A program made the position numbers and the translations under genes. From Candidatus Vampirococcus lugosii (lineage in GTDB: Bacteria; Patescibacteriota; Gracilibacteria; Absconditabacterales; Absconditicoccaceae), in the NCBI RefSeq assembly GCF_018420025.1, contig NZ_JAEDAM010000048.1:1-12496 (forward strand): DNA of 12,496 bases, given 5' to 3'. The notes under the pieces are model-generated. The model was not told where the DNA came from, made no database searches, and saw only the letters and a program-made list of their open reading frames with translations. Shown piece by piece: positions 1-12,496 of the stretch. Each line of letters starts with the position of its first letter. The stretch's first letter is position 1.

Positions 1-138
1 TCTTTTTATTAGTTCTTAATTAACTTTTCAAGCTTTTTTTATCTTTATTACTGCAAAAGTTTAGATATAAACTTATTGAAAAATTTTTTTATTTGTTTAT
101 AAGTTGATATTTAATTATTAATTGTATTTATAAAAAAA

Positions 139-1041
139 ATGTTTAGTAAAAAAATTTTGATATTATTATTTTTTTCTTTATTTTTGACTGCTTGTTTTGA
201 AACTAAAAAAATAACTTATCAAGATTCAAATCATCTTATGAGTAGTACTCAAGTAATTAGAGATATTAAAACCGTCAATTTTATGTGAGAAGATATAAAT
301 CTTGATGAACATAACTTTTTCAGGGAAAGAATAGAAAGAGAATTTTATATAATTGTTGATAATATTTATCAATATAAATTGTGGGTTAAAAGAACTTGAA
401 AATATTTTCCGTATTTTGAAGAGAAATTACAAGAATATTGACTTCCAGATGATTTAAAATATCTTGCTGTTGCAGAAAGTTTTTTAAGACATGAAGCTTA
501 TTCAAGTGTATGAGCATCTTGATTATGGCAATTTATGCCAGCGACTGCTAGAGAATATTGACTTTTGGTAAATGATTATGTAGATCAAAGAAATGATTAT
601 ACTTTATCAACTATTTCTGCTTTTGAATATTTGTCTTATCTTGGTTGACTTTTTGATTATGATTGGAAATTAGCATTATCTGCTTACAATAAATGACAAT
701 GAGCATTATCAAATACAATAGTAAGACAATGAAGTGATGATTATTTTGACTTATTACTAAATACAGAAACTCGTCGTTTCGTTCCTAGAATTCTTGCTAT
801 TAAGTTAGCTTATGAAAATAGAGAAAAACTTTGACTTAATTTAAAAGAAGAAGATTATTATTTTTTTCCAGATTATGAATTGAGAGAAGTTGAACAAATA
901 CAAGATATATATTCTTATCTAAATGAAAATAATATTTCAGTTTACGATTTCATAAAATTAAATCCTTGGATAAATATAAATCAAAATAAATTGCCATTGA
1001 GAGATGATTGACAAAATTGGACTATCAAAATTCCTATTTAA
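139..1041 (+). CDS. Lytic murein transglycosylase lipoprotein (SLT/MltD-like catalytic domain, degenerate LysM-like C-terminus), 300 aa under code 25
   Basis: ATG at 139, TAA at 1039-1041; open only if TGA is a sense codon. The N-terminus MFSKKILILLFFSLFLTAC is a signal peptide plus lipobox (Cys codon 193-195). The core LAVAES (Glu 475-477) ... SSVGASGLWQFMPATAREYGL ... WKLALSAYNKGQGAL matches the classic SLT-domain motifs (ES, GLxQ, AYN). Both glycines of GASGLWQF are TGA (511-513, 520-522), whereas Trp is TGG. The tail NISVYDFIKLNPWIN...GQNWTIKIP resembles a LysM repeat. Confidence 0.88.
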
Positions 1042-1057
1042 ATTTTAATAAAAAACA

Positions 1058-1624
1058 ATGAAAATAACATTTATTACTTGAAATAAATGAAAACTTAAAG
1101 AAATTCAAACAAATATTTCTTCAAGAATTAATCTTGTATCACAAGATATAGATATAATGGAAATTCAATCTCAAAATTTGGAAGAAATTTCCAAAAATAA
1201 AGCAAAACAAGCTTTTGAAAAAATATGAGAAGCAGTTTTAGTTGATGATACAGGAGTATTTTTTAATTATTACCCTGATTTTCCATGAGCATTTGCAAAA
1301 TTTGTATACAAATCTTTATGAAAAGATTGAATCAAAAAACTTTTTGATTGAGTACAAGATAATACTTGAAGTATGCAAACTGCAATTTCTTATATGGATT
1401 GAAATTTGTCTGAACCAGTTTGTTTTTTGTGAATAGCTGAATGAAAATTTGAAACTCATCATTTGGATCAAGTGCCTAATGATTCTTTACCATATAATTA
1501 TATTTTTGTTCCTAATTGATATACTCAAACAGTAACAGAAAATTATGAATATTGGCAAAAAAATTTATCACAGAGAAAAAAAGCTATTGAAAAATTTAAT
1601 AAATGGATTTCAAAATTTATTTAA
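1058..1624 (+). CDS. rdgB: Non-canonical purine NTP pyrophosphatase (RdgB/HAM1/ITPase family), 188 aa
   Basis: ATG at 1058, TAA at 1622-1624, 16 nt after the previous gene. The N-terminus MKITFITGNKGKLKEI is the family signature (TGNxGK, with both Gly as TGA). VLVDDTGVFF..YPDFPGAFAKF matches the DDTGL...G.PG.y.k motif. The C-terminal region LPYNYIFVPNGYTQT...KNLSQRKKAIEKF parallels FGYDPIF.P....SHRgkAl. Confidence 0.85.
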
Positions 1625-1656
1625 TATTTTATTTTTATAAAAATTTATAACTAAAT

Positions 1657-2835
1657 ATGTTAAAATATAAAAATTATATAATAAGTGTAATACTCGTAAT
1701 TATATGGAGTTTATTTTTTTCTATATATAAATATTATACTTGGTGATTATTTGATGAAGACTTTTTGACTTTGGAATATATTGCGGCATATTTAAGTTTA
1801 TGATGATTTTTTTCTTTTATTATTTGATGATTTATTTACGAATTGTTGAAAGAGAGAAAATTTCATTTTATAATTTCAACATTATCAATACTAGCGATAA
1901 TTATATTATATTTGCAATATTTATTTCCTGTTTATGATAATATAATTATTATAACATCTATTACAATTTTTATTTGATTTACATATTCTTTTTGGGTTAT
2001 ATTGAGAAGTATTCTTATATCTACTGAAATAAATAAAAATTATGCAAGTGATACTTTATTAAACTGAATAGCAAATATTTCTTTTATTTCATCATTAATT
2101 ATATGAAGTATATTGTGATGATATTTAGTTGAAAAATTAAATGAAAAATGAGTATATATTATTTTGTTGATATTACTAATAAGTGCATTATCATGACTTT
2201 TTTTGAGTAATAATCTTTCAATTTCTGATAATAAAAACTTAAAATCTAGATTTAAAGAATATAAAGAACATTATATTAGAGATTTTTTGTATGTATTCAA
2301 AAAATATTATATTGAAATGATTTTTTTATGAATGATAATAGTTATTGCCACTATAATTTCGCAAAAAGCAATTCAATATATTGTAGAAAATACAGATATG
2401 AAACAAAGTATAGCCACTTTTATACTTTTAGCTAGTGCTTTATGAAGTGTGATTTGAAATGTTTTGTCTATGAAAATAAACAAAAATAAATGGTATTTTT
2501 TTATGATTTGTAGTTTTTTATTTTGAATATCTACGATTATTTTACCATTTTTTTTATTAAATTTTATTATAACTATACTTGTAGCTTTTGTAGCTTGAGT
2601 TTTTTTCTGAATAGTTTTTAATTTACTTGAATCTGATTATTTAAAAAATATAGCAATTGATGATAAAAAATCATATTGATGAACAAGTTTGTGATTGATA
2701 AGTTCATTAGTTATATGAATTATGATGATTTTGATTGATGAAATAGATAAAATAGTATGAATTACTACTACTTACATAATTTTATGAATTATATTATTTA
2801 TCATTTGAATACTAATTTATTTTAGAAAAAAATAA
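1657..2835 (+). CDS. Polytopic integral membrane protein, putative MFS-type lysophospholipid transporter (LplT-like), 392 aa
   Basis: ATG at 1657, TAA at 2833-2835; I read the frame codon by codon and it has many TGA but no TAA or TAG. The protein is hydrophobic throughout, with about 10-12 helix-length segments separated by short K/R/E/D loops. It ends 24 nt before the Aas-like gene, the same partnership as lplT-aas in Proteobacteria. I saw no crisp MFS signature motif, so the coding call is strong and the functional call is moderate. Confidence 0.6.
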
Positions 2836-2859
2836 TTTTTAAATTTAAACTAAATTAAA

Positions 2860-5502
2860 ATGATTAAATTAATTTCAATAATATATTTTTTTATTTTAAG
2901 ATTAAGATATAAATTTGATATATCTTGATTAGAAAAAATAGAAAAAAATAAACAATATATAATTCTTCCAAATCATCAAGCACTTGTTGATCCTCAAATA
3001 GTTGTAAGTCTTGTATGACAAAAAATAAAAGTTAGTCCTTTGATGTCAGAAACTTATTATAATTTACCTATATTAAAATATTTTTTTATATGGATATGAG
3101 CAGTTTCAATTTGAGATATACAGAGGTGAACTTGAAATAAAGAAAGTATAAATAAATCTTTTGATAATATTAAATTAGCTTTAGATGAGTGAAAAAATAT
3201 TTTATTGTATCCATCATGACAGCTTTATAGTCAATGATTTGAATCAATAAAATGAAAAAAAATAGCATATAATTTAACTCAAATATTGCCAGATAATGTT
3301 GAGATTATCTTGATCAAAACTACATGACTTCGATGAAGTATTTTTTCAAAAGCTTGGTCTTGAAAAACTCCAAATTTGATTTTAAATTTAATTAAATCAT
3401 TTTTTATTTTATTGTGAAATATATTTTTTTTGATACCAAAAAGAAAAGTTAAAATTGAAATTGAAAATTATACAAATATATTGAAAAATACAAAAAATAT
3501 AAATGATTACAATCAAAAATTGGAAGAATTTTATAATAAAGATTGAGAAGAAAAAGTAAATTATAAAAAACATTTTTTTTATTTTAATAATACAAAAAAT
3601 AAAGAATTACCATTAAATATAGATTGAGCAATAAATTGTAGTTTGGATAATCAAGATTATGATTTACAAAAAATTGATGAAAAAATATTAAATAAAATAA
3701 TAAAAAAAATAGCTGAAATAAAAGAAATAAAAGAAGATAATATAAATATTAAATCAAGTTTGATAAATGATTTATATTTTGATTCTCTTGATTTAGCTGA
3801 AATTAAATCTTTTGTACAAAATAATTTTAAATTGGCAGACAATCCTTCTATTTTGGATTTGAAAACAGTTTTGAATTTGTATATTATGGCTATTTGAGAA
3901 TCACAAAACAAAGAAGAATTAAAAGATTGCAATTGGATACAGACAAATAATAAAGAAGAAAAATTATTTGATATAATTCAAAATAATTCTAATAAATTAA
4001 AAAACAATGTAAATATATTAAATTTATTTAAAGAAGTTTTTAAAAAAGATAAAAAAGAAAGTTTTGTTTATGATGAAATTTTTTGAATACAATCAAAAAA
4101 AGATTTTTTGATAAAAGTATATTTAATATCATCATATATTAAAAAATTTGATTGAAAATATATTTGATTAATGCTACCTAGTGTATCAAGTGCAAGTTTA
4201 CTTATTATTTCTACAATTTTGGCTTGAAAAGTTCCAGTTATGTTAAATTGGACATTATGAGAATCAGCCCTTTTACATTGTATTAAATTTGCTCAAATAA
4301 ATACAGTATTGACAAGTAAGAAATTTTATGAAAAGATACAAAATGATTGAACTGAAAAAATAAAAGATAAGTATGTTTTTTTGGAAAATTTATTAAAAGA
4401 TATTAAATTAATAAGTAAAATTAAGGCATTATTTAATAGTATGTTTTTCAAAATACCAGAAATTAAATCAGAAGATGAAGCAGTTATGCTTTTTACTTCT
4501 TGAAGTGAAAGTTTACCCAAAGCAGTTGTATTAACTCATAAAAATATAATATCAGATATAAATTGAGCTTTATATCATTTTCCTATTACAAATAAAGATA
4601 AATTAATATGATTTTTGCCACCATTTCATAGTTTTGGATTTAGTGTAAATACTATTATGCCACTTATTTCTTGACTAAAAGTTTTGTATACTCCAGATCC
4701 AAATGATATTAAAACAGTATGAAATTTAATATGACATTGAAAAATAACAGCACTTAGTGCAACCCCTACTTTTTTAAATATGATTTTGAAAGATACTAAT
4801 GAAGAAAAATTAAAAAGCTTGAAATATGCAGTAGTTTGAGCAGAAAAATGTAATGAAAATGTTTTTGAATTATTTGACAAAAAATGTCCAAATTGAAAAA
4901 TTCTTGAATGATATTGAATTACAGAATGTAGTCCAGTGATAAGTATTAATCCACCTATTAAATCAAAAAAATGAAGTGTTTGATTAGCTATTTATTGAGG
5001 TGATGTTAAAATAGTTTGACTTGAAAATAAAAAAATATTATGAAATAATAAAGAATGAATGATTTATTTCAAATGAGATAATGTTTTTGCTTGATATTTG
5101 GATAAAAATTTGGAAAATCCTTTTGAAAATATAGATTGAAAATTATATTACAAAACTTGAGATTTATGATATCTTGATAAAGATTGATATATTTATATAA
5201 CTTGAAGATTAAAAAGATTTATAAAAATAGCATGAGAGATGATATCTTTACCTTTTGTAGAATCAATATTGAATAAAAAATATTGAAATTCAATAGCTAT
5301 AGAAGCTTTGGAAAAAGATTGACAAGCAAAAATCGTTTTATTTAGCACAGAAAATATAAATCTAGAACAAGCTCAAGATTTCTTAAGACAAAATTGAGTA
5401 AGTAATTTAGTAAAATTATCTGAAACAATGATTATTGATGAATTACCTGTACTTTGAACCTGAAAAATAGATTATAAAATTTTGAAAAAGATGATTAAGT
5501 AA
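2860..5502 (+). CDS. aas: Tri-domain Aas-like enzyme: lysophospholipid acyltransferase (PlsC-type), internal acyl-carrier (PP-binding) domain and acyl-AMP ligase/acyl-ACP synthetase, 880 aa
   Basis: ATG at 2860, TAA at 5500-5502; about 50 in-frame TGA and no TAA or TAG. Acyltransferase: NHQALVD, the HX4D motif (2974-2991), and LLYPSGQL, which corresponds to the FPEG block. Carrier domain: LINDLYFDSLDLAEIKSFV, with the DSL phosphopantetheine-site Ser at 3784-3786. Adenylation domain: MLFTSGSESLPKAVVLTHKN (4495-4521), [45 protein letters not shown] and the terminal LGTGKIDYK. Most glycines in these motifs are TGA. Confidence 0.9.
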
Positions 5503-5567
5503 TTTGGAATTTTTTGTTATTTAAATTTATTTAATTTTAACTTTTTCTTAAAAAAGTAAAAAATCTA

Positions 5568-5597
5568 TTGCAAAATTTAAAAAAATATTAATAATAT
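5568..5597 (+). promoter_or_regulatory. Candidate sigma70-type promoter for the 5644-8073 gene pair (TTGCAA, 18 nt spacer, TAATAT)
   Basis: TTGCAA at 5568-5573 and TAATAT at 5592-5597, about 45 nt upstream of ATG 5644, in the only sizeable plus-strand intergenic gap (141 nt). This is a motif match only, and AT-rich DNA produces such matches by chance. Confidence 0.3.
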
Positions 5598-5643
5598 ATG
5601 TGTATATGTTTTATTTTTTTATTTAAATTAATTTTAATAAATT

Positions 5644-7410
5644 ATGAAAAAAATATTAATTACCAGTTTTGTATTTTTGTTTTTAATTTTGTGATTTGTA
5701 GTTAATGCAAATCAATCATTAAAACCGTGATCACAAGATAGAGGATTTGTAGATTGATGGTATTGTTCTACAAAAATAGATGAGAATGTAAATGAAAATA
5801 ATTCTCCATTTGTCCAAAATAGAGATTATAGATGTAGTTTTGGTGCAGGTCCAGAAACATGAAGATGTTTATTTACAGTAGAAGAGTGTTATGATTGTTC
5901 TGCTAGAGCAACTCATAAAGATGATTGATCGGATTATGAAACTAAATGAACTTTGACAGTATTTCAAAGTTGTGTTCATAATAATAGTTTGATAAATGAA
6001 GCTTGACATTATTGAACAAGACCAGCATATCATGGTATGTCAGATTTAAATTATGATCCTTCAGATTTAGGATGTAGTTATGGAACTAATCCACCAGAAA
6101 CAATAAAAGTAGTATCATGAGCTAGTCATTGTGCTGCAACTAATTTAAATAAATATAATGATAATTTATGATATGATGATCCTAACCCTGATAATTGGAA
6201 TTGGGACTGTTGAAATTCAAATGATTCAAGCACATTTACATGGACTGGTTTTTGAGATTTATGAACTAGTTCATATGAATCTACTGATGTTTGTTGAGGT
6301 TTAGAAGAATATCTTGGTAAAACGATTATATGACAACGGGGTTTACCAACTTGATTTGTTTGTCTAGAAGAAAAAATAGTTGATGAAAATGAAAAAAATA
6401 ATGATTATATAAATCTATGAGATTGAAAATATCTAGATAAAAGTTCTGATTATATATGATGATGATATTGTGAAGAGACAAATCTTAAGTCTTTTGATGA
6501 TAACAATGGTGATGGAATTTGAGGAGATGATCATTATTGTACATGAAATTGGGTATATTGGTGAATAGTTAATTCTTCTGATTGTCCAGATTGAACATAT
6601 AAAGATCTTATTTCAGAAAACACAAAATGAGAACTCGTTTGATTTGTTTGTAAAAAGTGAACAAATTCTAATCCACCAGCGAAATGTTGATGAGAAGATG
6701 GGAAAACTTATGCTTTTGATGATACAAGTTGGGGTACAAATGATTTTTGTGAAGAATGAGATGTAGATCCAACTAATCCTAGTTTCCCTGGTGAAGGAGA
6801 GACTAGAAATTGGACTTGTAATACTTCTTCTTGAGATCAAGCAAATTGTAGTGCTAGTAGAGAAACTGAAAATGTTGATCCAATTTGTAATATATATGAC
6901 AATCATCCTAAGAAATCTTGACATTATCTTGTTAATTTACAAGATGCTGGGAATCAATGGTGTATAGAAGAATGATATGATTATTGAAGTGTTTTAATGT
7001 GACATGATTCTTGACAACTGACTGATGAAATGATAAATAATAGTGGTTGAGCTTGGAGATGGAGAACTAATACTAATTCTTGGGATTGACCTAGTTCTGT
7101 TAGTGTAACTTCTTGAGATATAATTAAAAAAGTTGAATGTTGTAACTCAGTAACTAATCCACCAGCGAAATGTTGATGAGAAGATGGGAAAACTTATGCT
7201 TTTGATGATACAAGTTGGGGTACAAATGATTTTTGTGAAGAATGAGATGTAGATCCAACTAATCCTAGTTTCCCTGGTGAAGGAGAGACTAGAAATTGGA
7301 CTTGTAATACTTCTTCTTGAGATCAAGCAAATTGTAGTGCTAGTAGAGAAACTGAAAATGTTCAATGTTGTGAAGCAGGTTGATTTGCACCTTGTACAGT
7401 ATGTGAATAA
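5644..7410 (+). CDS. Secreted cysteine-rich modular protein of unknown function, 588 aa, with a duplicated 69-aa module
   Basis: ATG at 5644, TAA at 7408-7410; frame checked codon by codon. Signal peptide MKKILITSFVFLFLILGFVVNA followed by NQ (an AXA-like VNA site). The mature part has about 31 Cys. It contains repeated modules with the pattern C-G-G-x-D-G ... F-C-E-E-G ... NWTC ... C-S-A. Two copies are identical (PPAKCGGEDGKTYAFDDTSWGTNDFCEEGDVDPTNPSFPGEGETRNWTCNTSSGDQANCSASRETEN), and divergent copies lie between and upstream of them (GGAWRWRT, NWNWDCGNSNDSS). It ends in a Cys-rich tail, QCCEAGGFAPCTVCE, with no membrane anchor. Confidence 0.85.
6668..6876 (+). repeat. Copy 1 of a perfect 209-bp direct repeat inside the Cys-rich protein gene
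   Basis: Base-for-base identical to 7154-7362 by manual comparison. The offset is 486 bp (162 codons), so the copies are in phase. Confidence 0.95.
7154..7362 (+). repeat. Copy 2 of the perfect 209-bp direct repeat
   Basis: Identical to 6668-6876. The supplied antisense ORFs 6613-6924 and 7147-7365 share the same peptide for the same reason. Confidence 0.95.
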
Positions 7411-7443
7411 ATCTTTTTTATAAAATATTATTTTAATAAATAA

Positions 7444-8073
7444 ATGAATAGAATACTATATATTTGATGATTTATTTGATGAGCTTGAATTGTAATAGTA
7501 TTGTTTATATATATATTATCTTGAAATAATTGAAATTTAAATTGAAACATAAATAATTGAAATGAAATTAATTATGTTGATGATCAAGATATAGACAATA
7601 CATCTTTACAAGATGATTGTGTAAATAATGATTATTATGAAATAAACTGAATTAGTATGCAACCTATATTAAAAAATTGAGATAAAGTTTTGATAGCAGA
7701 ATGATATTATCAATGTGGAGGTGATATAAAAAGAAATGATATTGTGATTTATGATGCTGCATCAACAGAATCTATTATAATCAAGCAAGTTAAAGTAATG
7801 CCTAATGATAAAGTAGAATTTATAGAAAATGAGCAATGAGAAATAAATATTATTGTAAATGATCAAGTATTAAAAAATGAAGAAAATAATTCTTATATAA
7901 TAAATGAAAATCAAGAAAGAATGATGAGTTTGTACATTAATAATTGAAAATTACAATCAAATTCTTATTTCATATTTGGACAACAACAAAGATGAGGTAG
8001 TTTTGATTCTAGATCTCTGGGTGCAGTAAGTTTATCAGGTATGAAATGAAAACTTATACAAAAAAATGAATAA
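7444..8073 (+). CDS. lepB: Signal peptidase I (S26 family), 209 aa
   Basis: ATG at 7444, TAA at 8071-8073, 33 nt after the Cys-rich protein gene. N-terminal TM anchor (ILYIGGFIGGAGIVIVLFIYIL). GISMQPILKNGDKVLI is the G-SM-P-L..GD box, with the nucleophile Ser at 7654-7656. IIIKQVKVMPNDKV is the KR-V..PGD box that carries the general-base Lys. YFIFGQQQRGGSFDSRSLGAVSLSGMKGKL is the GDNR..S.DSR..G box. 16 of the 22 Gly codons are TGA, including a G/N-rich linker at 7522-7563. Confidence 0.85.
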
Positions 8074-8089
8074 AATTAATTTTATTCTA

Positions 8090-8130
8090 AAAAAAAAGAT
8101 ATACAGTAATTTACTGTATATCTTTTTTTT
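8090..8130. terminator. Bidirectional intrinsic terminator candidate (41-nt perfect palindrome)
   Basis: The sequence AAAAAAAAGATATACAGTAATTTACTGTATATCTTTTTTTT is centred on 8110. The stem is about 8097-8107 paired with 8113-8123, flanked by an A-run on the left and a T-run on the right, so each strand reads hairpin then U-tract. It lies between the convergent stops at 8073 (+) and 8147 (-). The stem is AT-rich, with only 3 G-C pairs. Confidence 0.6.
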
Positions 8131-8146
8131 AAATATTATTTTATAA

Positions 8147-8665
8147 CTATTTTTCCAAAAAATTTTTAATTTCTGGAAGTATATCAGATATTTTATATTT
8201 AAGACAATATCAATCTACACAATTATCTTGTGCTAATTTTTCCAAAAGATTTAATATTAAGTATATTTTTACTTTTGTTAATCAAAATTCCAAAAAAAAG
8301 TTATTAATAATTCTATCAACAAGAATTTTACCTGATAAAATTGTAGAATTAATATCTCTATCTATACAATAACCTTTTTGGAAAGCTATAGCAAAAAGAT
8401 TTTTATTATCTGAAGGATAAACTAAATACCAATTAAGAAATTTTTCCAAATCTTTTTCTTTAACTGCATTTTCCAATGATTTAATATATTTATTCATAGA
8501 ATATTTAATAGTTTGTAAGAATAAGTCTTTTTTATCTATAAAATAATAATATAAACTTGGTTTTTGAATATTTAGAGAATTAGCAATATTATCAAGTTTT
8601 ACATCAGTATATCTTTTTGCAAAAAAATGTTCTTCTGCAACTTTAAATATTTTTTCTTTTTCCAT
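8147..8665 (-). CDS. TetR/AcrR-family transcriptional regulator, 172 aa
   Basis: Start ATG (complement) at 8663-8665. The supplied 127-aa ORF ends at a TGA (8282-8284) but reads on as Gly to a TAG at 8147-8149. The N-terminal HTH is FAKRYTDVKLDNIANSLNIQKPSLYYYFIDKKDLF, the typical TetR_N pattern (T...IA...G.s...lY.hF..Ke.L). Confidence 0.85.
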
Positions 8666-8688
8666 GATTTTATTAAATAAATATAAAA

Positions 8689-9543
8689 TTATATTTTAAT
8701 TTTGGATAAAGCTCATTTTATAGTATTAACTATATCTGAATCAATAACAAATTTACTATTATCTTTCAAAGAATTTTGTGCAACTCTTAATTGTTCTTTC
8801 AATATAGCATTATCTTTAAAATAAGCAATTGCTGCACTTGCTTCATATTCTATTTCTTTTGCCCTAGCTTGTGCAATTCTTTCTATAGCTTCAGCTTGTC
8901 ATTGAGCTTCCAAAATTTGTTTTTCTTTATATCATTGTGCCTCTATAATATAAGATTGTTTTTTTCATTCAGCAGTAAGTACATATGCTCTTTTTTCTTG
9001 TTCTGCAATTTTTTGTTTACTCATGGCATCTACTAAATCTTTTGGTGGATCAATTTTTTGTATTTCAACTTTATTTATTCTAATTCACCATTTATCTGTT
9101 TCTTTTGCAAGATTTGTTTGAACATAAGTATTTATTTTTTGTCTATCTCATAAAATATCATCTAATGTCATAGTACCAATAATTCATCTTAATGTTGTAA
9201 CTCATAAGCTACTTACTGCCAAAATTGGATCTTGAATTTCATAAGTAGAACTTTTTGCATCATAAATTTGTGTAAATATAACTGAATCAACTAAAACGGC
9301 TGCATTATCAGATGTAATCATATTTTGAGCTGGAGTATTTATAACTCTTTCTCTCATATCTACTTTTTTTACAGATTCTATAAATGGAATGATAATATGC
9401 CAACCTGCTTGCAAAGTAGAATGATATTTGGAAAGTCTTTCTTTAACTCATTTTTCAAAAGGAGATACTTTTACAAGTGTAAAAAATATAATTATAAATC
9501 AAAGAAATATTAATAATAAGGATACAACAAACAGTCAATTCAT
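8689..9543 (-). CDS. SPFH/band-7 (stomatin/prohibitin-like, QmcA-type) membrane protein, 284 aa
   Basis: ATG (complement) at 9541-9543, TAA at 8689-8691. N-terminal TM (LFVVSLLLIFLGFIIIFF). It continues with EKGVKERLSKYHSTLQAGWHIIIPFIESV..VDMRE...PAQNMITSDNAAVLVDSVIF, then TLRGIIGTMTLDDILGDR and DKWGIRINKVEIQKIDPP, and ends in a coiled AEG/AQG-repeat tail. In the conserved WGI motif Trp is TGG (9088-9090) and the adjacent Gly is TGA (9085-9087). Confidence 0.9.
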
Positions 9544-9548
9544 ATCTT

Positions 9549-9698
9549 TTAATTAAGATTATAAATAATTAATTTAATTATAAACAAAAATACAATTAAT
9601 TCAATAAGAATTAATTTAAGAAAAGTTAAATTTATAAAAAAACAAAAAATTGATAGCAAAAATAAAATAATTACATATAAAGAATAAAATATTTTCAT
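9549..9698 (-). CDS. Small hydrophobic protein, 49 aa (hypothetical, one or two TM segments)
   Basis: ATG (complement) at 9696-9698, TAA at 9549-9551. Sequence: MKIFYSLYVIILFLLSIFCFFINLTFLKLILIELIVFLFIIKLIIYNLN. It sits between the LCP stop (3 nt upstream) and the SPFH start (5 nt downstream) on the same strand. A 50-codon open frame is uncommon in DNA this rich in TAA and TAG. There is no homology evidence, and low-complexity AT-rich sequence could produce it by chance. Confidence 0.35.
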   Translation of the reverse strand: MKIFYSLYVIILFLLSIFCFFINLTFLKLILIELIVFLFIIKLIIYNLN

Positions 9699-9701
9699 AT
9701 T

Positions 9702-11033
9702 TTAATTTTCAATAAATTTATTTCAAAGATATATTTCCATATGAGCATCTAACTCATTTGATTGTAGTACCTCATCAATATCAATAAAAATTCTCAATAA
9801 AGAAATTGTAGATTTATAAGAATTTAAATCATCTACATAAACTATATTTTTTTCATAATATTCATCAGAATTTCAAGTATCTATTACATCAAATCAGTAT
9901 TGTTTCAATTCAATAGCCATATTATTTGCTATAGAAATTAATCTTCAATGTTTAGATCTAATAGTTTTTGGATCTACTGCATTAACAACTTTAATACTAG
10001 GTTTTTCAAGTAAATATTCTTGATTATTTAAGAAAAAAAATGCAAAATCCTGAATATTTTTATAGTTGGAAAAATCAGATACATTAGCTCATTGTTGTAA
10101 AAGAACTGAAGCTCAACCAAACAAACTTCTCTGAGGATAATATAAAAAACATCAAATATCAGTTGTTTCAAAATAACTTTTATCACAATCTGCTGTAAGT
10201 CAAGCACTATTGTATATATCTAATTCTTTAACATAAGAAATAAGAGATATTATTTGTCTAAAACTTATATTAGTTTCCAACATAGAATTAAACTCTCAAT
10301 AAAGTTTTTGCAAATTAGGAATATTTACCAAATTATTTACAGATACTATTTGAGAAATAATTGATTTAATAAGTAATTGTTGTCTTATAGATCTAGAAAA
10401 ATCGGATGTAGTTTGTCTACTTCTAGCATATTTTAATGCAGTTTCTCAATCAAATTTTTGAATTCATTCTTCAACAATAAAAGTTTGATATCATCAATTA
10501 GCAGTAGGATATTTATGATCTACAATTTTTTCTGGTACATCAACTTCTACTCATCATAATGAATCTACTAATTTAATAAATCAATCAAAATCTATCAAAG
10601 CATAATAATCTATATTAATTCAAGTAATTTCATTAATAGTAGATATTAATGCATTTAATCATTCTGATACTTCTCAAGTTCTGTTATATATAGTTGGTAA
10701 TAATCAATTTATTTTTCAATTATAAGATACATCAGGATTACTAATATATAAATCTCTTGGAATAGATAAAAAACTTACAGATCATAAATCTACATCATAA
10801 GATGCAACTATAATACTATCTGCTAAATATCAATGATCATATCATAATATCAATGCATTAATTTGTCAAAACTCATCTACATTCAAATCTTCTCATACCG
10901 TAGATTCAGTAATAGACATTATCATATTTGATAAACCTGACATAAAATTTTGTCAAAAAGAGATAGCATAATTTGCAAAATAAAAAATCAGAAACAAAGA
11001 AAAAGATATAAATGAAAGTTTTATAAAAAACAT
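9702..11033 (-). CDS. LCP (LytR-CpsA-Psr) family cell-envelope glycopolymer transferase with a LytR_C-like C-terminal domain, 443 aa
   Basis: TAA at 9702-9704. ATG (complement) at 11031-11033 gives a TM anchor, MFFIKLSFISFSLFLIFYFANYAISF. LCP core: INALILGYDH..ADSIIVASYD...VSFLSIPRDLYI...GKINGLL...ITGINIDYYALIDFDGFIKLVDSLGGVEVDVPE...FDGETALKYARSRQTTSDFSRSIRQQLLIKSII. The GG of LGGVEV is TGA-TGA. C-terminal domain: KPSIKVVNAVD...IANNMAIELKQYGFDVID. The frame stays open upstream to an in-frame GTG at 11115-11117, which would add a basic leader (AFKKKRLG...), so the true start may be 84 nt further upstream. Confidence 0.88.
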
Positions 11034-11129
11034 AAAACTAATAAAAGAATCTTTAGTCTTGGAAAAAATATAAATTAAATTTCAATATGTTCATAACCTT
11101 TTTTTCTTAAAAGCCACTTTAATTAATTT

Positions 11130-11159
11130 ATTATAAATTTAAAATATGTAGTAATTGAA
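11130..11159 (-). promoter_or_regulatory. Candidate promoter for the minus-strand LCP/SPFH/TetR gene string (TTCAAT, 18 nt spacer, TATAAT)
   Basis: On the minus strand, TTCAAT lies at 11154-11159 and a perfect TATAAT at 11130-11135, inside the 247-nt gap upstream of the LCP gene. This is a motif match only and is easily produced by chance at this base composition. Confidence 0.22.
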
Positions 11160-11280
11160 AAATAGATAGATTAATTAATTTTAGAATTAATTCAAAATAT
11201 TATTTTCAAAAAATTACTAAAACTAAAAACCTATCTATATATAAAACTAAATTATTATATAATAATTATTTATACATTTT

Positions 11281-12496
11281 TTAAAAATCAATTGTTGGTT
11301 CCATAGGCATTCATCATCCAGGTATTCATCACATAAAACCTCACATAATTTCTTCAATTGTTTGAAACTCTTCAGGTTCTTGAACATCAATAGAATCAGT
11401 TCATTCAATTAAATCATTAAATTTAATAGAAAAATTACCTTTTTCTCAAAGAACACTAAATTTAAAATCTAAATCAAAATTAGATTCTATACTTTCATCT
11501 CAAAAAGAATATTCTGTTTTCAAATTTCAATTAAAAGAATCTTCTCAAGATCAATCATCATAAACAAAATTTATATCACTTTTATTTCACTCAGATGTAT
11601 AACTTATTGAAATACTTTCATCAGGAAGAGATGCATTTAAAAACTTAAGTTCTCATGAATCATTTCATAAATATCATTCAATATCAATTTCATCAATTTT
11701 GAATGTATCAAATTCTAATTTGTATCAATCTCATACATTAAGAGTTCATTTAAAATCAATATCATTGATAATATCATTTAATGATGAAGTAGCATCTGAT
11801 ATATCATTTTCTGTTAAAACAAAAACTTCAAGCGATAATATTTTAGTAGATAATTCTTGTATATTTTCAGAATCAAGTTCTACAGAAAAAGATGAGTTTC
11901 AAAGTTCTTCTACACTTTTTAATATAGGATATTCTTTTATCAAAGATTTAATATCACCAAACATATCATATACATCAGAAATATTTATTGATTCAACATC
12001 TCACAAAGTCTCACCACCAGCAATTTGAATCCATTGTCATTTAAATGGAGATATCATATTATCTATCATCATACCTAATTGAGAATCATCAGAATTTATT
12101 TCCATATTATCCAAAGATAAATATGCAGTTTCTCATAAGGTTATCATATTTAAATCAATTAAAGCATCTATATTAGATTCTGTTAATCAATCATTATAAT
12201 CTCAATTAATTGCCAAAGACAATTCCATTGATGATTCAGAATCCATAACATCTCATGAATTTTCTATATCCATAGAATAAGATAATTCAGCATCTCAAAC
12301 ATACATTTGATTATTTGAAGTTAAGTTTATAGATCCTTTTTCTTTAAGATAATCAAGAGATGATAATATTGAAATTGATTTATCTATATTATAGAATATA
12401 TCATCAACTATTGTATTATAAGCTTCTTCAAAACTTACATCATCAGCAAAAGATACTTCTGGTTTATCGCTAGATCCTCAAGTATCGAAACAAGCA
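11281..12496 (-). CDS. Highly acidic putative lipoprotein of unknown function, 5'-truncated by the window edge (404 aa visible), with a Gly/Met/Pro-rich C-terminal tail
   Basis: TAA at 11281-11283; the frame is open to the window end with no TAA or TAG. The first visible residues, ..ACFDTGGSSDKPE, look like the end of a lipobox (Cys codon 12490-12492), so only the signal peptide is likely missing. The body is D/E/S/N-rich (e.g. LSLDNMEINSDDSQLGMMIDNMISPFKGQWIQIAGGETLGDVE). The tail is EEIMGGFMGGIPGGGMPMEPTIDF, with most of its Gly as TGA. I recognised no family. Confidence 0.75.

What the first reader, a model, noticed from the sequence alone, without database searches (positions are those of the whole stretch)
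1..12496. Stop-codon reassignment: UGA is read as glycine throughout (translation table 25, Gracilibacteria/Absconditabacteria type)
Under the standard code the longest ORF is 127 aa and most of the window looks non-coding. With TGA as sense, about 90 percent of the window is covered by 11 genes that end only in TAA or TAG.

The amino acid is identifiable because TGA falls on invariant glycines of unrelated families:
- GASGLWQF in the SLT domain (511-513, 520-522)
- TGNKGK in HAM1
- FTSGS, EGYGITE, TGDLG, ITGR and GTGK in the adenylation domain
- GISMQP in signal peptidase
- LGGVEV in LCP
- AEG repeats and WGI in SPFH

In the WGI motif TGG (Trp, 9088-9090) and TGA (Gly, 9085-9087) sit side by side, which excludes the Mycoplasma-type code 4 (UGA=Trp). 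TGA is the dominant Gly codon: 16 of 22 in the signal peptidase gene, and about 50 occurrences in the aas-like gene.

Any standard-code pipeline would misannotate this locus as gene-poor or pseudogenised.
Basis: partly seen in the sequence, partly recalled or inferred. Interest (0 to 1): 0.7.

Follow-up and report, generated by a model that had tools for sequence, protein, structure and literature searches.

The report
UGA-as-glycine code in Vampirococcus contig

Summary
The observation and its interpretation both hold. Under the standard code the longest ORF is 127 aa. With TGA as sense, ten genes ending in TAA or TAG cover about 93% of the window.

TGA means glycine, not tryptophan:
- Pfam scores total 774 bits with TGA=Gly, 597 masked and 547 with Trp.
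- With TGA masked, 70 distinct TGA codons align to solved structures. Twenty-eight sit where most of the aligned structures have Gly, against 18 of 1006 other sites (p=2e-20). One touches a Trp.
- In the DNA of nine orthologues, the columns where this window has TGA hold TGA 242 times, GGN 128 times and TGG 3 times.

It is not new. All ten translations are identical to NCBI proteins of Ca. Vampirococcus lugosii (Absconditabacteria). Moreira et al. 2021 state the UGA-to-Gly recoding for this genome.

Corrections: there are ten genes, not eleven, and Pfam finds no PP-binding domain.

Additions:
- TGA supplies 82% of glycine codons.
- 85 of 120 database homologues are mistranslated with Trp (table 4).
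- The only CGA codon (3331-3333) lies on a conserved Trp column. This fits the CGA/CGG-to-Trp change that Codetta predicted for this phylum, so table 25 may be incomplete here.

The tRNA-Gly(UCA) gene and the loss of RF2 could not be checked.

The parts
139..1041 (+). g1: lipoprotein with an SLT lytic transglycosylase domain (MltD-like), 300 aa. 12 of 13 Gly codons are TGA. Stop TAA.
   Evidence: Pfam SLT scores 73.2 bits with G, 52.5 with W and 55.3 with X. NCBIfam matches MltD. Identical to NCBI MBS8122164.1. TGA at 511-513 and 520-522 lies in GASGLWQF.
1058..1624 (+). g2: HAM1/RdgB XTP/dITP diphosphatase, 188 aa. 12 of 13 Gly codons are TGA.
   Evidence: Pfam Ham1p_like scores 99.6 (G), 67.4 (W) and 79.3 (X) bits. 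In PDB alignments 7 of 12 TGA positions align to G in 1b78 and in 2e5x. Identical to MBS8122161.1.
1657..2835 (+). g3: MFS transporter, 392 aa. All 25 Gly codons are TGA.
   Evidence: Pfam MFS_1 scores 39.4 bits with G only; there is no hit with W or X. Identical to MBS8122165.1. An MFS gene lies near the aas-like gene in relatives.
2860..5502 (+). g4: Aas-like acyltransferase plus acyl-ACP synthetase (AMP-binding), 880 aa. 53 of 55 Gly codons are TGA.
   Evidence: Pfam AMP-binding scores 187.8 (G), 125.5 (W) and 136.4 (X) bits. NCBIfam matches acyl-[ACP]--phospholipid O-acyltransferase. The TGA=Gly translation is identical to NCBI protein P0001. In three PDB homologues 44 of 94 TGA positions align to G.
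3331..3333 (+). The only CGA codon in the window (g4 residue 158). It lies on a conserved Trp column, GL[W]GS.
   Evidence: Among 120 homologues the column holds W 78 times and R 41 times, counting the two translations of the window's own gene. W is present in the table-25 NCBI proteins P0005, P0028 and P0091. Codons in ten orthologues are TGG x4 and CGA/CGG x6.
5644..7410 (+). g5: orphan Cys-rich secreted protein, 588 aa, GC 30.7%. 45 of 69 Gly codons are TGA. It contains a perfect 209-nt direct repeat (6668-6876 and 7154-7362) and the window's only CGG codon (6337-6339).
   Evidence: The only database hit is itself. Repeat D1 is 100% identical.
7444..8073 (+). g6: signal peptidase I, 209 aa. 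16 of 22 Gly codons are TGA.
   Evidence: Pfam Peptidase_S26 scores 58.9 (G), 50.7 (W) and 55.1 (X) bits. NCBIfam sigpep_I_bact scores above its cut-off. Identical to MBS8122158.1.
8090..8130 (.). Perfect 19-bp hairpin flanked by an A-run and a T-run, between the convergent genes g6 and g7. Probably a bidirectional intrinsic terminator.
   Evidence: It is the only terminator-like site found. Folding gives -20.7 kcal/mol, z = -6.9 against shuffles.
8147..8665 (-). g7: TetR-family regulator, 172 aa. 2 of 4 Gly codons are TGA. It is the only gene ending in TAG.
   Evidence: Pfam TetR_N scores 31.8 bits. No TGA lies in the matched domain, so the score is the same under G, W and X. Identical to MBS8122159.1.
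8689..9543 (-). g8: SPFH/stomatin (QmcA/HflK-like), 284 aa. 11 of 13 Gly codons are TGA. TGG (9088-9090) and TGA (9085-9087) are adjacent in the WGI motif.
   Evidence: Pfam Band_7 scores 132 (G), 120.4 (W) and 124.4 (X) bits. All four PDB homologues read W-G-I at this site. Identical to MBS8122160.1.
9702..11117 (-). g9: LCP (LytR-CpsA-Psr) glycopolymer transferase, 471 aa from the GTG start that NCBI uses. 29 TGA codons.
   Evidence: Pfam LytR_cpsA_psr scores 117.8 (G), 79.6 (W) and 92.2 (X) bits. The 471-aa form is identical to MBS8122162.1; the 443-aa form from the first ATG is not in the collection.
11281..12495 (-). g10: acidic hypothetical protein, 5' end cut by the contig end, 404 aa. 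27 of 36 Gly codons are TGA.
   Evidence: No Pfam or NCBIfam hit. Identical to the NCBI partial protein MBS8122163.1. A Logan assembly holds a 422-aa version. Negative GC skew matches minus-strand coding.

Best explanation
The window is the whole 12,496-bp contig of Candidatus Vampirococcus lugosii (Absconditabacteria, Candidate Phyla Radiation). Its genes are translated with UGA as a glycine codon, while UAA and UAG remain the only stops and UGG remains Trp. This is NCBI table 25.

Shown here: UGA is a sense codon, its meaning is glycine, and it is used in all ten genes. In this 22% GC genome it has largely replaced GGN, supplying 230 of 279 glycine codons.

Inferred from published work on the clade, not tested here: UGA is decoded by a dedicated tRNA-Gly with anticodon UCA, and release factor 2 has been lost, so nothing terminates at UGA.

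Probable addition: the rare CGA (and perhaps CGG) codon is read as Trp rather than Arg, as Codetta predicted for Absconditabacteria.
For: Open frames: they reach 882 codons with TGA as sense, against 141 under table 11 and a maximum of 184 in 200 shuffles.

Pfam: summed bits are 774 (G), 597 (X) and 547 (W). MFS_1 is detected only with G.

Solved structures, with TGA masked as X:
- 78 of 180 aligned TGA positions fall on G and 1 on W. Glycine makes up 4.4% of the structures' residues aligned to non-TGA positions.
- By site, 28 of 70 TGA codons are majority-Gly, against 18 of 1006 other sites (p=2e-20).

Orthologue DNA (nine orthologues of the aas-like gene g4): columns where this window has TGA hold TGA 242, GGN 128 and TGG 3. 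The background rates are 0.9% GGN and 0.6% TGG.

Composition: glycine content is 7.2% with TGA counted and 1.3% without.

Adjacent codons: TGG-TGA encodes the W-G of WGI, which all four PDB stomatins conserve.

Identity: all ten translations match the NCBI proteins of Ca. V. lugosii.

Literature: the genome paper states UGA->Gly (PMC8080830). The Codetta screen confirms UGA->Gly in 6 of 6 Absconditabacteria species. It also reports that the two Gracilibacteria without the reassignment lacked the expected tRNA-Gly(UCA) gene and instead encoded RF2 (PMC8629427).
Against: - The window holds no tRNA gene, and the rest of the genome could not be reached. V. lugosii is not in the genome-contig collection. 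The decoding machinery, tRNA-Gly(UCA) and absence of prfB, is therefore untested for this organism.
- About 40% of the TGA sites covered by PDB alignments are not Gly in any of the aligned structures. This is expected for variable columns, and GGN-encoded Gly in the query behaves the same way.
- The evidence is comparative. No peptide-level evidence was examined.
Confidence: 0.97

Rival explanations
1. UGA is read as tryptophan (table 4, Mycoplasma/Spiroplasma type).
For: Table 4 opens the same frames as table 25. Many public protein predictions for this clade carry W at these positions, including P0002, which is this very gene.
Against: - W gives the lowest Pfam scores in every family whose matched domain contains TGA.
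- Only 1 of 70 TGA sites touches a Trp in solved structures.
- Orthologue DNA has TGG at 3 of 476 aligned codons, against 128 GGN.
- The W in database homologues was traced to TGA codons, so it is a translation-table artefact.
- Tryptophan content would be an implausible 6.5%.
- TGG and TGA sit side by side on conserved W and G.
Confidence: 0.01
2. The standard code applies and the locus is non-coding or heavily pseudogenised. UGA would be a true stop, or would be bypassed only occasionally by read-through or selenocysteine insertion.
For: Under table 11 no ORF exceeds 127 aa.
Against: - 230 in-frame TGA codons occur with not one in-frame TAA or TAG across ten genes.
- Full-length domain matches span many TGA codons.
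- The aas-like gene is 880 aa, and its closest homologues are mostly 878-881 aa.
- Frames this long never arise in shuffles.
- TGA positions are conserved as TGA or GGN across orthologues.
- No Rfam family, including any selenocysteine-insertion element, is found in the window.
Confidence: 0.005
3. A refinement rather than a true rival: the code is table 25 plus CGA/CGG = Trp, the extended Absconditabacteria code predicted by Codetta. NCBI's table-25 proteins would then be wrong at those residues, for example R158 of the aas-like protein should be W.
For: - The window's single CGA (3331-3333) lies in GL[?]GS. Orthologue codons there are TGG x4 and CGA/CGG x6, and the table-25 NCBI proteins read W.
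- Across V. lugosii and the seven orthologues other than Gracilibacteria HHAS10, 0 of 19 CGA/CGG codons lie on Arg-conserved columns. Nine lie on Trp columns and five on aromatic columns.
- Gracilibacteria HHAS10 places 3 of 12 on Arg columns and none on Trp columns.
- Shulgina & Eddy 2021 predict this reassignment for the phylum (PMC8629427).
Against: - For V. lugosii itself the evidence is one codon in one gene.
- The single CGG (6337-6339) is in an orphan gene and cannot be tested. A weak internal paralogue comparison, read by eye from the translation, aligns it with Lys.
- No tRNA evidence is available.
- Shulgina & Eddy stress that only experiment can establish the in-vivo reading.
Confidence: 0.55

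Closest known systems
NCBI translation table 25 (Candidate Division SR1 / Gracilibacteria code; Campbell et al. 2013, Rinke et al. 2013, as cited in PMC8629427 and PMC8080830)
   Same: UGA is a glycine codon, UAA and UAG are the only stops, UGG stays Trp, and the genome is AT-rich and belongs to the Candidate Phyla Radiation. The organism belongs to the phylum for which the table was defined.
   Different: Nothing differs for UGA. UGA usage is extreme: 82% of Gly codons in the window and 96% in the aas-like gene, against 36-86% in nine orthologues. CGA may additionally mean Trp, which table 25 does not include.
The published Ca. Vampirococcus lugosii genome (Moreira et al. 2021, Nat Commun, PMC8080830) and its GenBank/RefSeq annotation
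   Same: It is the same sequence. All ten translated proteins are identical to the NCBI entries from a 12,496-bp contig. The paper states that UGA is reassigned to glycine.
   Different: The passages and supplementary text I searched mention no codon-usage dominance of UGA and no CGA/CGG issue. I did not read the whole paper.
Translation table 4 (UGA=Trp; Mycoplasmatales, Entomoplasmatales and several insect endosymbionts)
   Same: UGA is a sense codon in a low-GC, reduced genome. Gene boundaries come out the same.
   Different: The amino acid is Gly, not Trp. Gene callers that fall back on table 4 produce the W-for-G errors seen in 85 of 120 database homologues.
Codetta-predicted CGA/CGG->Trp reassignment in Absconditabacteria (Shulgina & Eddy 2021, eLife, PMC8629427)
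   Same: CGA/CGG codons are rare (2 in 3870 codons here). They fall on Trp or aromatic columns and never on Arg columns in V. lugosii and the seven orthologues other than Gracilibacteria HHAS10.
   Different: V. lugosii is not mentioned in that paper. The support here is one codon from this genome plus 18 from relatives in a single gene family.

Membership tests
Translation table 25 (SR1/Gracilibacteria code) | UGA occurs in frame inside conserved protein-coding genes, i.e. it is a sense codon | tested here: met
   230 in-frame TGA codons occur in ten genes. Pfam domains span them. Frames of up to 882 codons are never reached in shuffles.
Translation table 25 (SR1/Gracilibacteria code) | The amino acid inserted at UGA is glycine | tested here: met
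   Pfam scores rank G > X > W. 28 of 70 TGA sites are majority-Gly in solved structures, against 18 of 1006 elsewhere, p=2e-20. Orthologue DNA has GGN at 128 of 476 aligned codons, against a 0.9% background.
Translation table 25 (SR1/Gracilibacteria code) | UAA and UAG remain terminators | tested here: met
   Nine genes end in TAA and one in TAG, with none in frame. The aas-like gene is 880 aa, and its closest homologues are mostly 878-881 aa.
Translation table 25 (SR1/Gracilibacteria code) | UGG keeps its Trp meaning, distinct from UGA | tested here: met
   Three of the four TGG codons in g4 lie on columns that are W in 86-115 of 118 homologues. Adjacent TGG-TGA aligns to W-G in four PDB stomatins.
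Translation table 25 (SR1/Gracilibacteria code) | A tRNA with anticodon UCA and glycine identity elements is encoded in the genome | not testable with these tools
   No tRNA gene lies in the window. V. lugosii is absent from genome contigs. About 150 kb of relatives' flanks held only tRNA-Lys and tRNA-His. The paper's supplementary files do not list tRNAs.
Translation table 25 (SR1/Gracilibacteria code) | Release factor 2 (prfB) is absent | not testable with these tools
   This needs the whole assembly. It is known for the clade only from the literature (PMC8629427).
Translation table 25 (SR1/Gracilibacteria code) | The organism belongs to Absconditabacteria or Gracilibacteria | tested here: met
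   The proteins are identical to NCBI entries of Ca. Vampirococcus lugosii. The lineage is Ca. Absconditibacteriota.
Translation table 25 (SR1/Gracilibacteria code) | All other codons keep their standard meaning | tested here: inconclusive
   The one CGA codon lies on a Trp-conserved column. The one CGG is untestable. Other codons were not tested individually.
Translation table 4 (UGA=Trp) | UGA positions align to tryptophan in homologues from standard-code organisms | tested here: not met
   1 of 180 aligned positions is W. 3 of 476 orthologue codons are TGG. W gives the lowest Pfam scores.
Extended Absconditabacteria code (CGA/CGG=Trp, Codetta prediction) | CGA/CGG codons fall on Trp-conserved columns and avoid Arg-conserved columns | tested here: inconclusive
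   The feature is met for the single CGA in the window. It is also met across V. lugosii and the seven orthologues other than Gracilibacteria HHAS10: 9 of 19 CGA/CGG codons on Trp columns and 0 on Arg columns. One codon is too few to settle it for this genome.
Extended Absconditabacteria code (CGA/CGG=Trp, Codetta prediction) | tRNA(UCG) and tRNA(CCG) with tryptophan identity features (G73, no A20) | not testable with these tools

The most novel reading that the evidence does not exclude
Vampirococcus lugosii does not use plain table 25. It uses a code with three departures from the standard one: UGA=Gly plus CGA and CGG=Trp. Its public proteome would then be wrong at every CGA/CGG codon (for example R158 of the aas-like protein should be W). 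Most metagenome-derived homologues in large protein databases are separately wrong at every UGA, where Trp replaces Gly.
Probability: 0.5. Interest if true: 0.35.

Novelty: already known. Interest (0 to 1): 0.15.

Why it matters
The recoding itself is textbook for this phylum and was published for this genome, so the main value is practical.

- The first-stage reader reached the right code from raw sequence alone.
- The common database error for this clade is silent Gly-to-Trp substitution from table-4 gene calling, not fragmentation. 85 of 120 homologues of one protein are affected. This corrupts alignments, profiles and structure predictions at exactly the conserved glycines.
- If CGA/CGG=Trp also holds, even the curated table-25 proteins carry Arg-for-Trp errors.
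- UGA supplying 82-96% of glycine codons shows how far AT pressure can push a captured stop codon.

Tried and rejected
- Parent genome: I looked for it so as to check tRNA-Gly(UCA) and prfB. The single genome-contig scan returned only three loci, none from V. lugosii. That test could not be run.
- tRNA scans: nine relatives' loci (about 150 kb) were scanned for UCA, UCG or CCG anticodons. Only tRNA-Lys(UUU) and tRNA-His(GUG) turned up.
- Literature: Campbell et al. 2013 (PMC3619370) is not held in the library. The V. lugosii supplementary files contain no tRNA or release-factor terms.
- Homologues of g5, to test the CGG codon: the protein is an orphan and hits only itself.
- Database homologues as independent evidence for Gly: rejected, because most are table-4 translations in which W stands for TGA. 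I used solved structures and raw orthologue DNA instead.
- Rfam: no RNA family is found in the window.
- Promoter scan: uninformative in 22% GC DNA, with 129 sites found against 128 expected.
- Selenocysteine, read-through and pseudogenisation were considered and rejected (see the rival explanations).

Full report
**1.

The window is 12,496 bp with about 22% GC. Under table 11 the longest start-to-stop ORF is 127 aa (8282-8665), and the longest stop-to-stop frame is 141 codons.

Treating TGA as sense opens frames of up to 882 codons. These resolve into ten genes: six on the plus strand (139-8073) and four on the minus strand (8147-12495). They cover 93-94% of the window. Nine end in TAA and one in TAG.

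Three controls show this is not chance:
- In 200 dinucleotide-preserving shuffles the longest TAA/TAG-free frame averages 123 +/- 19 codons, with a maximum of 184.
- Freeing TAG or TAA instead of TGA gives at most 194 or 248 codons.
- GC skew changes sign at about 8 kb, where the coding strand switches.

Two small corrections are needed. There are ten genes, not eleven, which matches NCBI's count. Pfam does not detect a PP-binding domain in the aas-like gene at E<=0.01, although one orthologue has a faint PF00550 hit.

**2. The amino acid is glycine**

*Pfam scores.* I translated the ten genes three ways, with TGA as G, W or X, and scanned Pfam. G scores highest in every family whose matched domain contains TGA:

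| Family | G | W | X |
|---|---|---|---|
| SLT | 73.2 | 52.5 | 55.3 |
| Ham1p_like | 99.6 | 67.4 | 79.3 |
| AMP-binding | 187.8 | 125.5 | 136.4 |
| Acyltransferase | 33.8 | 19.2 | 22.7 |
| Peptidase_S26 | 58.9 | 50.7 | 55.1 |
| Band_7 | 132 | 120.4 | 124.4 |
| LytR_cpsA_psr | 117.8 | 79.6 | 92.2 |
| MFS_1 | 39.4 | no hit | no hit |

The sums are 774 (G), 597 (X) and 547 (W) bits. W scores below the masked version, so Trp is actively disfavoured.

*Solved structures.* For a test free of translation bias, I aligned the X-masked proteins to PDB sequences and tallied what lies opposite each X.
- 78 of 180 aligned positions are G and 1 is W. The next most frequent residues are A and D, at 11 each. 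Glycine makes up 4.4% of the structures' residues aligned to non-TGA positions.
- Counted by site, 70 distinct TGA codons are covered. 41 have G in at least one of the aligned structures and 28 in most of them. At other sites the majority-G count is 18 of 1006 (binomial p=2e-20).
- Where all aligned structures (at least two) have G, the query codon is TGA at 15 of 24 sites and GGN at 3.

*Orthologue DNA.* I fetched the DNA of nine orthologues of the aas-like gene (L001, L004-L011).
- At the columns where this window has TGA, they have TGA 242 times, GGN 128 times, TGG 3 times and other codons 103 times.
- At all other columns GGN is 0.9% and TGG 0.6% of codons.
- An earlier count on five orthologues found nine columns where at least three had GGN. 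This window has TGA at all nine.

*Composition.* Glycine makes up 7.2% of residues with TGA counted and an implausible 1.3% without.

*Adjacent codons.* TGG-TGA at 9090-9085 encodes the W-G of the SPFH WGI motif. All four aligned PDB stomatins conserve W-G-I there.

**3. Identity of the sequence**

A homologue search returned an NCBI protein named "AMP-binding protein [Candidatus Vampirococcus lugosii]" from a contig of exactly 12,496 bp. It is residue-for-residue identical to my TGA=Gly translation. The other nine proteins are likewise identical to NCBI entries of the same organism and contig, including MBS8122158-MBS8122165. The lineage is Ca. Absconditibacteriota.

[quoted passage not shown] The Codetta screen recovers UGA->Gly in 6 of 6 Absconditabacteria and 13 of 15 Gracilibacteria species. 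The two exceptions lack tRNA-Gly(UCA) and encode RF2 (PMC8629427).

The finding is therefore correct and already known. NCBI already annotates this contig with table 25.

**4. Mechanism**

Shown here: UGA is sense, means Gly, and occurs in all ten genes. UAA and UAG terminate. UGG stays Trp.

Inferred from the literature, not tested here: decoding is by a tRNA-Gly(UCA) and RF2 has been lost. The window has no tRNA gene and no Rfam hit. The genome is not in the genome collection I could scan. Relatives' flanks yielded only tRNA-Lys and tRNA-His.

**5.

*(a) UGA has become the main glycine codon.* It supplies 230 of 279 glycine codons (82%) in the window, and 53 of 55 (96%) in the aas-like gene. 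In nine orthologues the share is 36-86% and tends to fall as GC rises (rho=-0.61, p=0.06).

*(b) The usual database error is table 4.* The Logan copy of this very gene (P0002) has W at all 53 TGA codons. 85 of 120 homologues carry more W than G at these columns. In all seven such homologues whose DNA I fetched, every W that departs from the standard-code reading is encoded by TGA.

*(c) Table 25 may be incomplete here.* Shulgina & Eddy predict CGA/CGG->Trp in Absconditabacteria.
- The window has one CGA (3331-3333, g4 residue 158) and one CGG (6337-6339, g5).
- The CGA lies in GL[?]GS. The table-25 NCBI orthologues there read W, and orthologue codons are TGG x4 and CGA/CGG x6.
- Across V. lugosii and the seven orthologues other than Gracilibacteria HHAS10, none of 19 CGA/CGG codons is on an Arg-conserved column. 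Nine are on Trp columns and five on aromatic columns.
- Gracilibacteria HHAS10 puts 3 of 12 on Arg columns and none on Trp columns.
- This is suggestive, but for V. lugosii it rests on a single codon. The CGG is in an orphan gene and cannot be tested.

**6. Gene content, in brief**

| Gene | Product |
|---|---|
| g1 | MltD-like SLT lipoprotein |
| g2 | HAM1/RdgB XTP/dITP diphosphatase |
| g3 | MFS transporter |
| g4 | Aas-like acyl-[ACP]--phospholipid O-acyltransferase / acyl-ACP synthetase |
| g5 | orphan Cys-rich secreted protein |
| g6 | signal peptidase I |
| g7 | TetR regulator |
| g8 | SPFH/stomatin |
| g9 | LCP transferase |
| g10 | acidic hypothetical protein, truncated at the contig end |

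An MFS gene lies near the aas-like gene in three relatives. g6 and g7 converge on a strong hairpin at 8090-8130.

**7. Verdict**

Interest is low. The residual value lies in the CGA-on-Trp observation and in the scale of table-4 mistranslation in public protein sets.

Noticed in passing
window 3331-3333 (g4 residue 158): The only CGA codon in the window sits on a conserved Trp column, GL[W]GS. Orthologue codons there are TGG x4 and CGA/CGG x6. NCBI's table-25 protein has Arg at this residue. This fits the Codetta-predicted CGA/CGG->Trp change in Absconditabacteria.
   Followed up: yes
window 6337-6339 (g5 residue 232): The only CGG codon in the window. It lies in an orphan gene, so no homologue column is available. 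A weak internal paralogue comparison (GLPTGFVC against GELVGFVC, read by eye from the translation) aligns it with Lys, which does not support Trp.
   Followed up: partly
window 5644-7410 (g5); repeats 6668-6876 and 7154-7362: An orphan Cys-rich secreted protein of 588 aa with a signal-peptide-like N-terminus. Its only hit among 5.8 billion protein clusters is itself. GC is 30.7% against about 22% for neighbouring genes, and GGN use is higher. It contains a 100% identical 209-nt direct repeat, which is either a very recent duplication or an assembly artefact.
   Followed up: partly
P0002 and 85 of 120 homologues of g4; DNA checked in L004, L005, L006, L008-L011: Most metagenome-derived homologues in the large protein collection were translated with table 4, so they carry Trp where the gene has TGA (Gly). 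Trp content is inflated to 5-7%.
   Followed up: yes
window-wide; g4 2860-5502: TGA supplies 82% of all Gly codons in the window and 96% in g4, against 36-86% in nine orthologues. The share tends to rise as GC falls (rho -0.61, p 0.06).
   Followed up: yes
L001 (Gracilibacteria HHAS10), aas orthologue starting at 9968: This Gracilibacteria relative uses UGA=Gly but places CGA/CGG on Arg-conserved columns (for example alignment columns 369 and 1114, where the other nine sequences, V. lugosii included, have AGA or AGG). It seems to keep CGA/CGG = Arg, unlike the other orthologues that use these codons.
   Followed up: partly
window 8090-8130: A perfect 19-bp hairpin flanked by A8 and T8 runs, between the convergent signal peptidase and TetR genes. 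It folds at -20.7 kcal/mol (z = -6.9) and looks like a bidirectional intrinsic terminator.
   Followed up: partly
window 1657-5502; L006 8212-12886, L007 10001-14537, L011 8377-12718: The MFS transporter and the Aas-like acyltransferase/acyl-ACP synthetase are neighbours here and in three relatives, often with a phosphopantetheinyl transferase (ACPS) or a MarR gene. This suggests a lysophospholipid or fatty-acid salvage module, plausible for a predator that takes lipids from its prey.
   Followed up: partly
window 9702-11138 (g9): The start codon is ambiguous. NCBI uses the GTG at 11117 (471 aa). The first ATG, at 11033, would give 443 aa starting directly at the hydrophobic segment.
   Followed up: no
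window 139-200 (g1) and 12480-12495 (g10): Both proteins show lipobox-like motifs (LTAC in g1; g10 begins AC... at the contig edge). A Logan assembly of the same organism carries a 422-aa version of g10 (P0137) that extends the N-terminus by 18 residues.
   Followed up: no
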